Shown: in pieces, positions 1-3,213 of the stretch
Numbering within the stretch: position 1 is the stretch's first letter
Layout of the letters: the number at the start of each line of letters is the position of its first letter
Sequence record: PZ242158.1
DNA: 64,000 nucleotides
Source of the DNA: a phage
Direction: 5' to 3' (one strand)
Position numbers and translations under genes: made by a program
The notes under the pieces: model-generated
The model's input: only the letters and a program-made list of their open reading frames with translations
Told to the model about the DNA's origin: nothing
Databases searched by the model: none

Positions 1-27
1 ACCTATTACAAAGGCTCACTGGCTAAG

Positions 28-903
28 ATGGTCAAACTGGGTGCAGGAGAGGCTCCAGCAGCGACTCAGCAGCAAAAACAGCAACAAGGTGCACAATCAC
101 AAGGTCAGAAGCAGAAACCCCAGCAGAATGCCAATCAGGACGTTTTACGCATCTATGGGGATGTGACTCAGATTGTTGGCAACGTGGTTACTGTAAATGA
201 CCACAAGATTGGCGAAGGTGCTATGGTTGTAACTGATGAGCAGCTTAAAGACCTGGTGGTAGGTGGTCGTGTTGCAGCCATTGTTGACAAAGACACCGGA
301 AACATTATCAGTGGTTTCAAAGCCTATCCACCTAAGGCAGAGAACGGCACTCAAGGCTCTGGTGGCAAGCGTAAATCCTCTTACGACCCTATTGGTGTAG
401 AGACGGGGCATAGCATCAATGCTTTGCAGATCATCCTGGATCGCGGGTTTAAGGTGGATGACCCACTAAGCGTGGCTAAAACACTGCACGTAGTCACCAT
501 TGAGCTTAAGAAAGAGTATGCTCAAGCCACCAACCGAACTGAAGATGAAGTAGGTGCCAGTGTCGGTAATGCGGTGTTGAACGCTTGTCGCCGTATTGAC
601 AAGAAAACGAAAGTTGATGATTTTGCAGCGGCAATTACTGCAGAAGCAAAAGATGTCTTGACTAATCTGGCTGAGCCGTTGTACGATTGGATCAAGAACG
701 GTGCTGAGTCCACTGACCATCAAGAACCTCAAGCTGCCAAACAGGAAGCCGCTCCACAGCAAAACACTGTAGACGCTCCTCCTGTAAATGATGAGGAAGA
801 TGACCCGATGGGTCAGAATCCGGCGCAGTATGACTTCTGTGATGACATACCTTTCGCTCCGGTAGGTTTGCAATATGGCAAAAGTAGAATCCACGCATTG
901 TAA
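28..903 (+). CDS. hypothetical protein with Gln-rich segment and acidic SSB-like C-terminal tail (..DFCDDIPF then 16 more residues); no in-frame stop before position 28 so the true start may lie upstream of the window
   Basis: Long ORF; acidic tail with DDIPF motif resembling bacterial SSB C-terminus; 3' end overlaps next gene. Confidence 0.45.
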
Positions 904-1498
904 GAGGTGCATCAAGTGCGGAGAGGTGAAAGACCTCTCCGAGTTCTACAAACACCCAAAGATGTCTGACGGTCATCTTAATAAGTGCAAAGAGTGTTGC
1001 AAGAAGGCCAGCAGGGAGGCTGACCAATTTTCCCACGACTCTTCAGAAAAAGGTGTAATACGCGTGCTGTACAAGGCTCAAAAGTGCAACAGCAAGCAAA
1101 GAGGTCACCCGCCTCCGACTTACACCAAAAAAGAGTTTAAGGAGTGGCTATACCTAAACGGTTACAAAGAGTTGTATGATCAGTGGGTAGCCAGCGGATA
1201 CGACAAAAGGAAAAAGCCTTCTTGTGACAGGATAGATGATTTCAAAGGGTACTCTTTTGATAATATCCGTTTAACGACTTGGGGAGAAAATAAAGACAAG
1301 CAGACAGAGGATATTCTGTTGCATAGAAGCACCAGCGGTAGACGGTGTAAAAATGTAAGGAGGCTGGACATGAATGGCAACGTTCTTAAAGAATGGGTAT
1401 CCCACAATTCTTGTAGAAGAGAAACCGGAATATGTGTTGATTACTACATTCATGAAAAAATTCCAGCCCCAGATGGATACCTCTATGAATACTTTTAG
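875..1498 (+). CDS. homing-endonuclease-like protein (N-terminal CxxC..CxxC zinc-binding loop; C-terminal PSCDRID..GY..N motif, His-Me/HNH type)
   Basis: Cys-rich N-terminus [28 protein letters not shown] and DRID-GY-N motif typical of phage free-standing endonucleases; overlaps 3' end of upstream gene. Confidence 0.5.
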
Positions 1499-1560
1499 CA
1501 CCTAACTAACATAGCCCTGCCCGAAAGGGTGGGGCATTTTTGTATAAGGAGATCTGAAAA

Positions 1561-1977
1561 ATGACATTAGAAGATATCATTGTTAAACCTGAGAACTATG
1601 ACCAATACAACCTGTCAACTCAATCTGTAGACTTTGGATGCGCCACGGTCAGTGCGTGGCTGGTTAACGGAAAAGAGCTGGATAAATGCTTAGAAGCTCA
1701 CATGTCTATTAACAAGTTTCTGGATGAAAATACTCACTGGCTTGAGGGTGCAGGCGTATATGCTTCATGGTTGGAGAGTATGGGATTCGACTACCAATCT
1801 GAAGAGGGGTGGTGGAGCTATTTAGCTATCTGCCCAGAGACGCTGCAATGCTTCATGAAATATTCTGAAGATTTAGAGTATCGCGCTGTGGTTGACAGTG
1901 CTATTGCCCGTTATAGCCGTAAACCTTTTTCCCACGACATTAAAACTGTGGAAGAATTTGTTGAAGTTTTCTGTTGA
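1561..1977 (+). CDS. hypothetical protein
   Basis: ORF with AAGGAG RBS 8 nt upstream of ATG. Confidence 0.5.
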   Translation: MTLEDIIVKPENYDQYNLSTQSVDFGCATVSAWLVNGKELDKCLEAHMSINKFLDENTHWLEGAGVYASWLESMGFDYQSEEGWWSYLAICPETLQCFMKYSEDLEYRAVVDSAIARYSRKPFSHDIKTVEEFVEVFC

Positions 1978-2073
1978 CACAGGTTGAAAGGTGTGCAATT
2001 ATAACTTCATAGAACGGGAGGACGTGATGAACGAAGAAAACTGGGATGTATAACTAACAGGAGGCCACTGCCC

Positions 2074-2339: not shown

Positions 2340-2765
2340 ATGATCTATGAAATGCCAAAACTGATTCGTGATGATGCCCAAAACGCTCACACCATTATTA
2401 TGGGCAAACGTATGGATATTATTTGTCATAAAGATTTCTGGGAAGGAAGTTACTTCACAGAGTATTTTGGTAAACTGGACAATGGTCTGCTGATCCAGTT
2501 CTACACCGATGCGGAAAACAACATTCACTGGGAGTTCGAAACTGAAGATATCCATAAACTTTTCACCTTCCTCGGTATTAAGGTTGAGGCCAAGTTTGAA
2601 GAAGGTGAGTGCGACGATTGTGGATTCTATGAGGTAACAGATTTCTACCTTCCAAGTGGTAAAAATCTCTACTACGAAAGCCACTTCGGCAACTCAAATA
2701 TGCCACAGGGTTGGGATGAGTTTTTGGAAATTGCAGAAGAGGAGCTGGAATACCGTGATTATTGA
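2340..2765 (+). CDS. hypothetical protein
   Basis: ORF 141 aa, co-directional. Confidence 0.5.
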   Translation: MIYEMPKLIRDDAQNAHTIIMGKRMDIICHKDFWEGSYFTEYFGKLDNGLLIQFYTDAENNIHWEFETEDIHKLFTFLGIKVEAKFEEGECDDCGFYEVTDFYLPSGKNLYYESHFGNSNMPQGWDEFLEIAEEELEYRDY

Positions 2766-3213
2766 TACTGTAAAGGGAGATCTAATCTCCATTTTCAAGA
2801 AAGGGTCAGGCCACATGATCCACGGTTGTAACTGCTTTCACACAATGGGTGCAGGTATAGCGAAAGATATTGCCCGTGAGTTCCCTCAAGCACTGGCAGC
2901 CGACAAAGAGACTGCTTATGGTAATCTAGACAAGCTGGGTATGTTTTCTTGTTGGGAGCATTTTGCCAAGGCCAGGGTCGTATATGGAATCAACCTGTAT
3001 ACCCAGTTCTACCCAGGGCCCAATGCTGAATACTTCTCAATCATGAAAGGTTTTGAGCGAGTCAACGAGGTATTCAAAGGTATGTCATTGCCGTTCTACA
3101 TTCCTAAAATCGGATGCGGTATTGGAGGTCTAAAGTGGAAACATGTAGAAGATGTAATTAATCTTGCAACCACAGATATTGATGTGGTTGTAGTAGAGTA
3201 CAAAAAGTGTTGA
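2755..3213 (+). CDS. macro-domain-like protein (ADP-ribose binding/processing); start placed at GTG overlapping upstream stop, ATG at 2656 is an alternative
   Basis: Motifs GDLISIF, HGCNCFHTMGAGIAKDI, PKIGCGIGGL resemble macro domain signature (GDIT / NAAN..GGGV / P.I..G..G). Confidence 0.5.
   Translation: MIIDTVKGDLISIFKKGSGHMIHGCNCFHTMGAGIAKDIAREFPQALAADKETAYGNLDKLGMFSCWEHFAKARVVYGINLYTQFYPGPNAEYFSIMKGFERVNEVFKGMSLPFYIPKIGCGIGGLKWKHVEDVINLATTDIDVVVVEYKKC

What the first reader, a model, noticed from the sequence alone, without database searches (positions are those of the whole stretch)
28..1498. SSB-like acidic C-terminal tail extended by an overlapping homing-endonuclease gene
The first ORF ends ..[22 protein letters not shown] followed by 16 extra residues ([15 protein letters not shown]), and the endonuclease-like gene starts inside this extension at 875. 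In bacterial SSBs the terminal DDIPF with a free C-terminal Phe is the protein-interaction hub. An extension past it would be expected to alter that function, and suggests the endonuclease gene inserted at the 3' end of the host gene.
Basis: inference. Interest (0 to 1): 0.5.

Follow-up and report, generated by a model that had tools for sequence, protein, structure and literature searches.

The report
Capped SSB tail plus homing endonuclease
A selfish endonuclease gene sits exactly between the last codon and the stop codon of a phage SSB-like gene, but the 15 extra residues it adds belong to a conserved, apparently undescribed peptide "cap" that follows the DDIPF tip in about 230 phage genomes, mostly without any endonuclease.

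Summary
The window is an rV5-like coliphage (Vequintavirus). Bases 1-903 encode residues 124-423 of an SSB-like protein ending ..YDFCDDIPF + [15 protein letters not shown] (15 residues, not 16). A 207-aa endonuclease gene starts inside that extension at 875.

The insertion idea is supported. Among 117 related phages, about 65 have neither the endonuclease nor the extension and end exactly at DDIPF-stop. 32 carry the window's arrangement. 20 carry the endonuclease with DSIPF-stop intact. The window's insert is exactly 640 nt, placed between the Phe codon and the stop.

The idea that the extension is incidental read-through is not supported. AP[IV]GLQY-x3-4-Φ-x-small-Φ follows DDIPF tips in about 230 phage records. 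These include canonical SSBs, DnaB-like helicases and a portal protein, mostly without an endonuclease. Codons differ synonymously throughout, so the peptide itself is under purifying selection.

The endonuclease is a PacI-like HNH enzyme. Its relatives usually sit just downstream of genes ending in an SSB tip. I infer that the family homes to tail-coding DNA and brought the cap with it. What the cap does is unknown. It should block the free-carboxylate docking of the SSB tip.

The parts
1..855 (+). Codons 124-408 of the rV5-type SSB-like gene (orthologue of Bas52_0087 / bas50_0088), up to its terminal Phe codon (853-855). The first 123 codons lie upstream of the window.
829..855 (+). SSB-Ct-like tip [12 protein letters not shown]-free alleles read YAFDDDIPF and allele C reads YEFDDSIPF.
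   Evidence: There are 10 substitutions in the last 45 nt before the junction, against about 1 per 45 nt elsewhere.
856..903 (+). 15-codon cap [15 protein letters not shown] plus a new stop (TAA 901-903). It is a member of the conserved tail-cap module.
   Evidence: Selection test: 16 of 45 nt differ from L009 but only 3 conservative aa changes in this frame, against 9 of 14 in the other frames, P<5e-5.
856..1495 (+). The 640-nt inserted cassette (cap, stop, and endonuclease gene without its own stop), lying exactly between the host Phe codon and the host stop position.
   Evidence: HEG-free relatives span 1360 nt where the window spans 2000. Junction alignments.
863..867 (+). Shine-Dalgarno-like TAGGT, 8 nt before the endonuclease ATG, formed by the Val-Gly codons of the cap.
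   Evidence: Read from the sequence; inference.
875..1498 (+). Free-standing PacI-like HNH (beta-beta-alpha-Me) homing-endonuclease-like gene, 207 aa.
875..903 (+). 29-nt dual-coding overlap: the cap residues YGKSRIHAL-stop in frame 1 and the endonuclease [10 protein letters not shown] in frame 2.
   Evidence: The SSB frame is the conserved one; the endonuclease N-terminus before its first Cys is not (MAKVESTH versus MGGHAFMP).
899..1003 (+). N-terminal Cys4 zinc module of the endonuclease (C..C[IF][16 protein letters not shown]), residues 9-43.
   Evidence: The module sits at a fixed offset (+4 after the upstream stop) in seven complete genes (window/L001, L009/L010, L055, L008, L046, L056, L058); a truncated remnant in L021 lies at +13. 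In L046, L056 and L058 it is fused to a classical HNH domain instead.
1217..1294 (+). Catalytic core [26 protein letters not shown] (residues 115-140), aligned with PacI DRSDSFEGYSPQNARL.
1352..1495 (+). C-terminal NUMOD-like DNA-binding domain ending ..DGYLYEYF. The last codon TTT and the following TAG occupy the place of the host gene's TTC TAA.
1514..1545 (+). Intrinsic terminator. In HEG-free phages it directly follows the SSB-like gene; here it ends the SSB-like plus endonuclease transcript.
   Evidence: No promoter-like site was found between the two genes.

Best explanation
Bases 856-1495 are a 640-nt mobile cassette. It sits in frame, exactly between the terminal Phe codon and the stop codon of a Vequintavirus SSB-like gene.

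The cassette does two things. First, it encodes a PacI-like HNH homing endonuclease. That gene has no promoter of its own, is co-transcribed with the SSB-like gene, starts inside the gene's new 3' end, and reuses the host gene's stop position and terminator. Second, it supplies 15 new C-terminal residues and a new stop for the SSB-like protein.

Those 15 residues are not junk read-through. They are a copy of a conserved phage-specific tail cap, AP[IV][GT]L[QP][YF]-x3-4-[ILV]-[HYN]-[ACSV]-[ILMV]-COOH. This cap follows the SSB-type DDIPF tip in about 230 phage genomes, on carrier proteins of at least five unrelated kinds, mostly without any endonuclease.

The endonuclease family habitually sits just 3' of genes that end in an SSB tip. 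I therefore infer that it recognises tail-coding DNA as its homing site. I also infer that it entered the Vequintavirus gene, whose native end is DDIPF-stop, from a donor whose SSB carried the cap, and that gene conversion copied the adjacent cap-coding segment and a diverged tip (YDFCDDIPF) along with it.

For the cap itself my best guess, at about 40%, is a partner switch. It turns the tip's terminal Phe into an internal residue, which would block the carboxylate-anchored docking used by host SSB-interacting proteins such as ExoI and RecO. It would then present a composite motif with a new hydrophobic C-terminus to some other partner.

Shown: the anatomy, the allele polymorphism, the conservation and selection of the cap, the fold of both proteins, and the endonuclease-tail association. 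Inferred: homing activity, the direction of transfer, and the function of the cap.
For: Insertion:
- The locus has three alleles in phages that are about 97% identical. Roughly 65 records are empty (..FDDDIPF-TAA-terminator). 32 records have a 640-nt insert with the cap. 20 records have a 587-nt insert with TGA directly after DSIPF.
- Substitutions cluster at both junctions: 10 of 45 nt on the left and 5 of 45 on the right, against about 1 of 45 elsewhere.
- L013 keeps the cap plus about 70 nt of endonuclease 5' and 3' remnants.
- L011 has the window-type tip but a stop codon and no insert.

Cap is a conserved module:
- An IMG/VR scan for PFAP[IV]GLQY gave 48 loci, all at the C-terminus of an ORF after a DDIPF-like tip.
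- Carriers are PF00436 SSBs, a DnaB-like helicase, an SU10-type portal, rV5-type proteins and other OB proteins.
- Further variants appear among 1.84 billion representative proteins.
- About 230 phage records carry it.
- Only 9 true hits occur in 185,579 species genomes, all gamma-proteobacterial except one MAG labelled Parasphingorhabdus; they lie on SSB-like ORFs, one on a plasmid and one on a chromosome.
- Every codon varies synonymously.
- Pairwise tests give P from <5e-5 to 4e-3 for conservation in the SSB frame only.

Endonuclease:
- Five of six sampled distant homologues lie 24-78 nt downstream of a gene ending [DE][DE]IPF.
- The same zinc module abuts the cap in seven complete genes and, as a truncated remnant, in L021.

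SSB-like nature: and preprint 10.64898/2026.04.29.721553.

Carboxylate anchoring of the SSB tip: RecO Arg132 (PMC3152348).
Against: - No cleavage or homing was demonstrated.
- The catalytic His of classical HNH enzymes is absent (D-R instead of D-H). Activity is inferred only from the PacI analogy.
- The direction of transfer (cap arriving with the endonuclease) is inferred from linkage within one genus. Distant orthologues with a cap and no visible endonuclease remnant (L005, L006) also fit an old native cap.
- DDIPF stays conserved in capped tails. That argues against simple inactivation of the tip and leaves the cap's function open.
- AF2 shows the cap as disordered (pLDDT 25-30) and docked on nothing.
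- Alleles with and without the cap coexist at similar frequencies, so in this genus the cap may be nearly neutral.
Confidence: 0.72

Rival explanations
1. The 15 residues are incidental read-through into the 5' region of an inserted endonuclease gene. They have no function of their own and damage the SSB tip.
For: Within the genus the extension occurs only with endonuclease allele A, and both lie in one 640-nt indel. Nine of the 15 codons overlap the endonuclease ORF. A second endonuclease allele restores a stop right after the tip, as if the extension were disfavoured.
Against: The same peptide follows DDIPF in hundreds of phage proteins without an endonuclease. Serine AGT versus TCA, arginine AGA versus CGC/CGG, and leucine and glutamine codons all differ while the amino acids stay the same. 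The overlapping endonuclease frame is not conserved.
Confidence: 0.08
2. The cap is the ancestral native end of this protein family. The uncapped Vequintavirus alleles are secondary truncations, and the endonuclease later overprinted its start onto a pre-existing cap in situ rather than importing it.
For: Distant orthologues at 34-42% identity carry the cap. Two of them (L005, L006) have a terminator directly after it and no endonuclease remnant. Synonymous sites are saturated, so the cap is old.
Against: Most family members at all depths end at ..IPF. Empty alleles differ from capped ones by a single clean 640-nt indel that contains both cap and endonuclease, with clustered flank substitutions typical of co-conversion. 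L013 shows that a cap without an endonuclease can arise by endonuclease decay. Converting the GCT codon to a stop needs at least two changes, yet all roughly 65 empty alleles share TAA followed by the same spacer.
Confidence: 0.12
3. Assembly or annotation artefact, or a decaying pseudogene junction. On this view the protein is really made with a free DDIPF end, for example through an unrecognised stop, a frameshift or processing.
For: None found directly. Proteolytic removal of the cap cannot be excluded with these tools.
Against: 32 independent genomes share the junction. No in-frame stop lies between 856 and 900. No unusual RNA structure is present there (z = 0.43). The cap is under purifying selection, which requires that it be translated.
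Confidence: 0.04

Closest known systems
T4 segG, a free-standing GIY-YIG homing endonuclease between genes 32 and 59 that cleaves gene 32 (PMC2988022)
   Same: It is a promoter-less or host-transcript-dependent free-standing endonuclease gene lodged next to the phage SSB gene, and it is thought to spread by cleaving the SSB gene of endonuclease-free relatives with co-conversion of flanking markers.
   Different: segG is GIY-YIG, lies upstream of gene 32 and does not change the protein. Here the enzyme is a PacI-like HNH, lies at the 3' end, overlaps the coding sequence and changes the C-terminus of the protein.
Restriction endonuclease PacI (PDB 3ldy/3m7k) and the HNH homing endonuclease I-HmuI (1u3e)
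   Same: Beta-beta-alpha-Me fold flanked by Cys4 zinc sites. PacI shares the D-R..GYS..N.RL core. I-HmuI shares the architecture of a nuclease domain plus a C-terminal DNA-binding domain.
   Different: 24% identity to PacI over 87 residues. The window protein has an extra N-terminal zinc module and a NUMOD-like tail, and its cleavage has not been tested.
E. coli SSB C-terminal tip (PMDFDDDIPF-COOH), the docking site for ExoI, RecO, PriA, chi and other partners
   Same: An acidic run followed by I-P-F at the end of a disordered linker after an OB fold. Some family members carry EPPMDFDDDIPF identically.
   Different: In the window the Phe is internal, followed by 15 residues, so the free carboxylate that partners anchor is missing.
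Bas52_0087, the SSB-like trigger of the DRT10/UG17 defence system (preprint 10.64898/2026.04.29.721553)
   Same: It is an orthologue. Escape positions D252 and Y351 fall in the same protein; D252 is nearly invariant in my alignment, while Y351 is not among the conserved columns listed there. It is described as two OB folds plus a disordered tail with FDDDIPF.
   Different: Bas52 has the uncapped allele. The preprint does not mention capped alleles or the endonuclease.

Membership tests
Bacterial-type SSB (Pfam PF00436) | Sequence match to the SSB OB-domain profile | tested here: not met
   No Pfam or NCBIfam hit for the 423-aa protein. The only match is the last 50 residues to PRK09010 at E 0.78.
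Bacterial-type SSB (Pfam PF00436) | OB fold of SSB type | tested here: met
Bacterial-type SSB (Pfam PF00436) | Disordered linker ending in an acidic tip whose terminal Phe has a free carboxylate | tested here: not met
   The linker and the DDIPF tip are present, but in the window Phe408 is followed by 15 residues. The feature is met in the empty and C alleles.
Bacterial-type SSB (Pfam PF00436) | ssDNA binding and oligomerisation | not testable with these tools
   Only indirect evidence: the preprint places its escape mutations at a predicted oligomer interface.
Free-standing HNH homing endonuclease | Beta-beta-alpha-Me nuclease fold with zinc-binding cysteines | tested here: met
Free-standing HNH homing endonuclease | Canonical catalytic His of the HNH motif | tested here: not met
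   The motif reads D118-R119, with Arg invariant. This matches the PacI variant (DR..GYS..N), in which, from my recollection of the PacI structure paper, a Tyr is thought to start cleavage. Y126 and N139 are invariant.
Free-standing HNH homing endonuclease | Presence/absence polymorphism at one precise site among near-identical genomes, with a diverged target at the junction | tested here: met
Free-standing HNH homing endonuclease | Site-specific cleavage of the empty allele and super-Mendelian inheritance | not testable with these tools
   Needs in vitro cleavage assays and mixed infections.
SSB-tip cap module (proposed here; no published description found) | Starts directly after the Phe of a [DE][DE].[IV]PF tip with A-P-[IV]-G-L-Q-Y | tested here: met
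   Window residues 409-415 read APVGLQY. The same is seen in 48 IMG/VR loci and about 230 phage records.
SSB-tip cap module (proposed here; no published description found) | Seven to nine further residues ending hydrophobic-x-small-hydrophobic at the protein C-terminus | tested here: met
   GKSR-I-H-A-L-stop. Compare PRHA-I-H-A-I, PAL-L-N-C-M and ANHT-I-Y-V-L.
SSB-tip cap module (proposed here; no published description found) | Purifying selection on the peptide | tested here: met
   (P from <5e-5 to 4e-3 for close and mid-range pairs) and the codon table.

The most novel reading that the evidence does not exclude
The cap is a previously unrecognised, phage-specific short linear motif that re-purposes the universal SSB C-terminal tip. 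Making the Phe internal switches the tail away from the host's carboxylate-dependent SSB-interactome, and possibly away from tip-linked defence triggering such as DRT10, toward another partner. On this reading the PacI-like endonuclease family that homes to tail-coding DNA is the vehicle that has moved this motif between unrelated genes (several SSB families, primase-helicases, even a portal), which would amount to endonuclease-driven shuffling of a protein-interaction motif.
Probability: 0.3. Interest if true: 0.8.

Novelty: new variant of a known kind. Interest (0 to 1): 0.6.

Why it matters
SSB biology treats the free C-terminal Phe of the DDIPF tip as the docking point for more than a dozen genome-maintenance proteins. 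A conserved 14-16-residue cap after that Phe, limited to phages and prophage- or plasmid-like elements and present on SSBs, helicases and a portal, implies a mode of tail use that has not been studied.

It is also directly testable. The uncapped orthologue was recently reported as the trigger of the DRT10 defence system, through a proposed interplay with ExoI at this very tip. The BASEL phage collection already holds near-isogenic phages with capped, uncapped and empty alleles.

Finally, the locus is a clean natural example of a homing endonuclease that rewrites the C-terminus of its host protein while preserving a functional motif. It also defines an endonuclease family tied to SSB-tail-coding DNA.

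Tried and rejected
- Pfam and NCBIfam gave nothing usable for either protein. PHROGs gave only 'unknown function' and 'endonuclease VII'.
- I looked for an RNA structure that might regulate the endonuclease start or cause recoding at 830-930. There is none (z = 0.43).
- No promoter-like site lies between the genes.
- Full-text searches for APIGLQY, IGLQY, PFAPIG, DDIPFAP, DIPFAP and TLPFPRH found no paper printing the motif. GLQYP, searched in the same call, was absent from all 15 papers listed. The library is incomplete, so this is weak evidence of novelty.
- I first split caps into a 'native' type (P-A-L-L-N-C-M) and an 'endonuclease-borne' type (G-K-S-R-I-H-A-L). I dropped this after the representative search showed a continuum, for example PRHAIHAI and NNSAIYVI on endonuclease-free SSBs.
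- I considered resemblances to the beta-clamp-binding motif, the ssrA/ClpX degron, the SulA/Lon degron and PDZ ligands. None fits the conserved positions well enough to claim.
- I considered an assembly artefact and rejected it because 32 genomes share the junction.
- The tail profile search against 1.84 billion proteins returned only 30 hits, because a 37-position profile has little power. It gives variants, not prevalence.
- The preprint text gives no per-phage DRT10 data for Bas50, Bas51 or Bas53, so capped and uncapped alleles could not be compared.

Full report
**What is in the window.** The window comes from an rV5-like coliphage (Vequintavirus). Bases 1-2000 match 117 phage records at 91-98% identity, best Escherichia phage DrSchubert at 98.2%. 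Frame 1 is open from base 1 to a TAA at 901-903 and ends ..[28 protein letters not shown]. In DrSchubert the same gene (bas50_0088) is 423 codons and starts 369 nt upstream of the window edge. The window therefore holds residues 124-423, and the ATG at 28 is internal. The extension after DDIPF is 15 residues (856-900), not 16. A 207-codon ORF at 875-1498 begins inside it, so 875-903 is read in two frames.

**The endonuclease gene is an insertion.** The 117 related records fall into three alleles.
- About 65 are empty. The gene is 408 codons and ends ..YAFDDDIPF-TAA, followed after about 20 nt by an intrinsic terminator.
- 32 carry the window's arrangement (allele A).
- 20 carry the endonuclease with a TGA directly after ..YEFDDSIPF, and the endonuclease ATG eight bases after that stop (allele C).

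The window's insert is exactly 640 nt (856-1495), lying between the Phe codon (853-855) and the position of the original stop. The endonuclease's last codon and stop (TTT TAG) sit where the host gene's TTC TAA was, and the host terminator (1514-1535) now follows the endonuclease. Allele C's insert is 587 nt.

Substitutions between allele A and the empty alleles pile up at the junctions. There are 10 in the 45 nt to the left and 5 in the 45 nt to the right, against about 1 per 45 nt elsewhere. This is the usual signature of a diverged homing site with co-converted flanks. A metagenomic relative (L011) has the window-type tip YDFCDDIPF but a stop codon and no insert, which makes it a recombinant or a precise loss.

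**The extension is not incidental.** Among 56 homologues of the SSB-like protein, the same peptide recurs after the tip in lineages only 34-83% identical:
- [15 protein letters not shown]
- APIGLQYGRSRIYAL
- APIGLQYANHTIYVL
- [15 protein letters not shown]
- AYAGLQYATHAIHCLY

All other homologues end at ..PF. Two of the capped genes (L005, L006/L007) are followed at once by a terminator and a convergent gene, with no endonuclease. A third (L013, 83% identical) keeps the cap and about 70 nt of endonuclease 5' and 3' remnants.

A scan of IMG/VR for DNA encoding PFAP[IV]GLQY found 48 loci. In every one the motif follows a DDIPF-like tip and runs 14-16 residues to the stop. The carrier proteins are varied:
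- canonical PF00436 SSBs;
- a 691-aa DnaB-like helicase;
- an SU10-type portal protein;
- rV5-type proteins;
- other small OB proteins.

A profile search of 1.84 billion representative proteins added variants such as APVTLPFPRHAIHAI and APIGLPYPRHAIYVI. The resulting consensus is AP[IV][GT]L[QP][YF]-x3-4-[ILV]-[HYN]-[ACSV]-[ILMV]-COOH.

About 230 of 50,697 deposited phage genomes carry tip plus cap. They include lambdoid HK75, mEp235 and mEpX2, Salmonella phage g341c, T1-like phages, phi92-like phages, and Klebsiella phages in which the carrier is annotated 'DNA primase/helicase'. In contrast, one genome for each of 185,579 bacterial species gave only nine true hits. All lie on SSB-like ORFs and are gamma-proteobacterial, apart from one MAG labelled Parasphingorhabdus. 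No paper in the searchable library prints the motif.

**Selection on the cap.** Codon tables show synonymous variation at every conserved position, for example Ala GCT/GCG/GCC, all four Pro and Gly codons, six Leu codons, and Gln CAA/CAG. Between the window and L009, which both carry the endonuclease, 16 of 45 nucleotides differ. Only three conservative amino-acid changes result in the SSB frame (V/I, K/R, H/Y), including Ser AGT versus TCA and Arg AGA versus CGC. The other two frames change at 9 of 14 positions. Random placement of the same number of substitutions never did as well in 20,000 trials. In the 29-nt overlap, then, the constrained frame is the SSB tail, not the endonuclease N-terminus (MAKVESTH versus MGGHAFMP). 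The cap is translated and it matters to the phage.

**The endonuclease.**
- It has 198 homologues.
- Four cysteines (C12, C15, C38, C41) and the core P-S-x-D-R-x-D-D-x-K-G-Y-S-x-D-N-I-x-L-x-T-W-x-x-N are invariant or nearly so.
- The AF2 model is confident, pLDDT 91.6.
- PacI is also the only PDB hit by sequence (E 0.09-0.18), sharing DR.D.F.GYS..N.RL.
- The classical catalytic His is replaced by an invariant Arg, as in PacI, so activity is plausible but unproven.

**The endonuclease family is tied to SSB tails.** Its N-terminal zinc module (C[FI][16 protein letters not shown]) starts four bases after the upstream stop in the window and in L009/L010, L055, L008, L046, L056 and L058. A truncated remnant in L021 starts at +13. 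In L046, L056 and L058 the module is joined to a classical HNH domain instead, and the upstream genes there are unrelated cap-bearing SSBs. Of six more distant homologues whose contexts I fetched, five lie 24-78 nt downstream of a gene ending in an SSB-type tip..DWDDQEIPF..DTEIPF..DDSEIPF..EDEIPF+NEVQ, and a ResIII helicase ending ..DEDIPF plus 22 other residues. One, in a crAss-like contig, does not. I infer that the family uses tail-coding DNA as its homing site. That sequence is held constant by selection on the protein, which makes it an ideal target.

**Most likely history and mechanism.** The native Vequintavirus gene ended at DDIPF-stop. A cassette from a donor whose SSB carried the cap entered by cleavage and repair at the conserved tip-coding sequence, bringing the cap-coding 45 nt and a diverged tip along. 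The endonuclease has no promoter of its own. It is read from the SSB-like transcript, has a Shine-Dalgarno-like TAGGT supplied by the cap's Val-Gly codons, and begins 26 nt before the SSB-like stop. Its expression is therefore probably coupled to the abundant upstream message. Allele C shows that the same endonuclease can also sit behind an uncapped tip.

What the cap does is not resolved. Two facts constrain it.
1. Partners such as RecO anchor the carboxyl end of the SSB tip with an arginine (PMC3152348). An internal Phe should therefore not dock in the canonical way.
2. DDIPF remains conserved in capped tails, so the tip is still used, either as part of a longer composite motif or after removal of the cap.

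My best guess, at about 40%, is a partner switch away from the host's carboxylate-dependent interactome. AF2 leaves the cap disordered and undocked.

**Comparison with known systems.** The closest precedent is T4 segG, a free-standing endonuclease gene next to the SSB gene 32 that cleaves gene 32 of related phages (PMC2988022). It belongs to a different nuclease family, lies upstream, and does not alter the protein. The endonuclease gene is already annotated in GenBank as 'putative homing endonuclease' or 'endonuclease VII', and the SSB-like nature of the host gene appears in a preprint. Those parts are known. What looks new is threefold:
- a conserved cap after the SSB tip;
- its spread over unrelated carrier proteins;
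- its link to a tail-associated PacI-like endonuclease family.

**Verdict.** The ordinary part is a homing-endonuclease polymorphism. The interesting part is a widespread, selected and apparently undescribed tail module that contradicts the expectation that the SSB tip must be terminal. Interest 0.6; novelty 'new variant of a known kind'.

Noticed in passing
L052 (IMG/VR 3300020046_003745), ORF ending at about 3934; also L014, L020, L022: An SU10-type portal protein (PF23899, E 2.4e-178, covering residues 17-602 of 634) continues through a Q-rich linker into ..EFDDKIPFAPIGLQYRSILNCM. This is a portal carrying an SSB-type tip plus cap.
   Followed up: partly
L019, L039, L059 (146-kb IMG/VR phages); Klebsiella and Salmonella phage records: A 691-aa DnaB-like primase/helicase ends ..GPDDDTPFAPIGLQYAKHAIYVI. 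In Salmonella phage KE23 the annotated features under the match are 'DNA primase/helicase | endonuclease'.
   Followed up: partly
L064:641-2476 and 2501-3118: A ResIII/DEAD helicase ends ..ISDEDIPF followed by a different 22-residue hydrophobic extension (SLSIAIPLASLSLYLEWYNLII). A homologue of the window's endonuclease starts 24 nt downstream.
   Followed up: no
L011:3600-3770: A Vequintavirus allele with the window-type tip YDFCDDIPF but a TAA stop, no cap and no endonuclease. It is apparently a recombinant or a precise loss of the cassette.
   Followed up: partly
L004:1867-2445 (phage inoa, allele C): The allele C endonuclease is 93% identical to the window's (alignment A4) but has a replaced, shorter N-terminus (MKCKRCGEDKEASDFYTSNKSTCKECC) that lacks [10 protein letters not shown]. 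Its insert restores a stop directly after the SSB tip.
   Followed up: partly
GenBank MG065644-MG065690, matched by window 1-2000: Sixteen records named 'Campylobacter phage' with host Campylobacter jejuni are 96-97% identical to E. coli rV5-like phages across this region. The host assignment looks doubtful.
   Followed up: no
P0198 (120 aa): An N-terminus that looks Ead/Ea22-like to me (not checked against any profile) is joined directly to ..[28 protein letters not shown]. This suggests the tip-plus-cap segment recombines onto unrelated genes, or it may be a gene-calling artefact.
   Followed up: no
L078:606-2609 (Vibrio phage 1.085.O, MG592460): The gene order is a GIY-YIG gene, then ERF recombinase, then a 107-aa protein ending ..DDDFDTEIPF, then a homologue of the window's endonuclease. 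That puts two different endonuclease-type genes in one small recombination module.
   Followed up: no
window 2755-3213: This ORF corresponds to genes whose products have a faint Macro-domain (PF01661) hit in related contigs; FV3 annotates it as a phosphatase.
   Followed up: no
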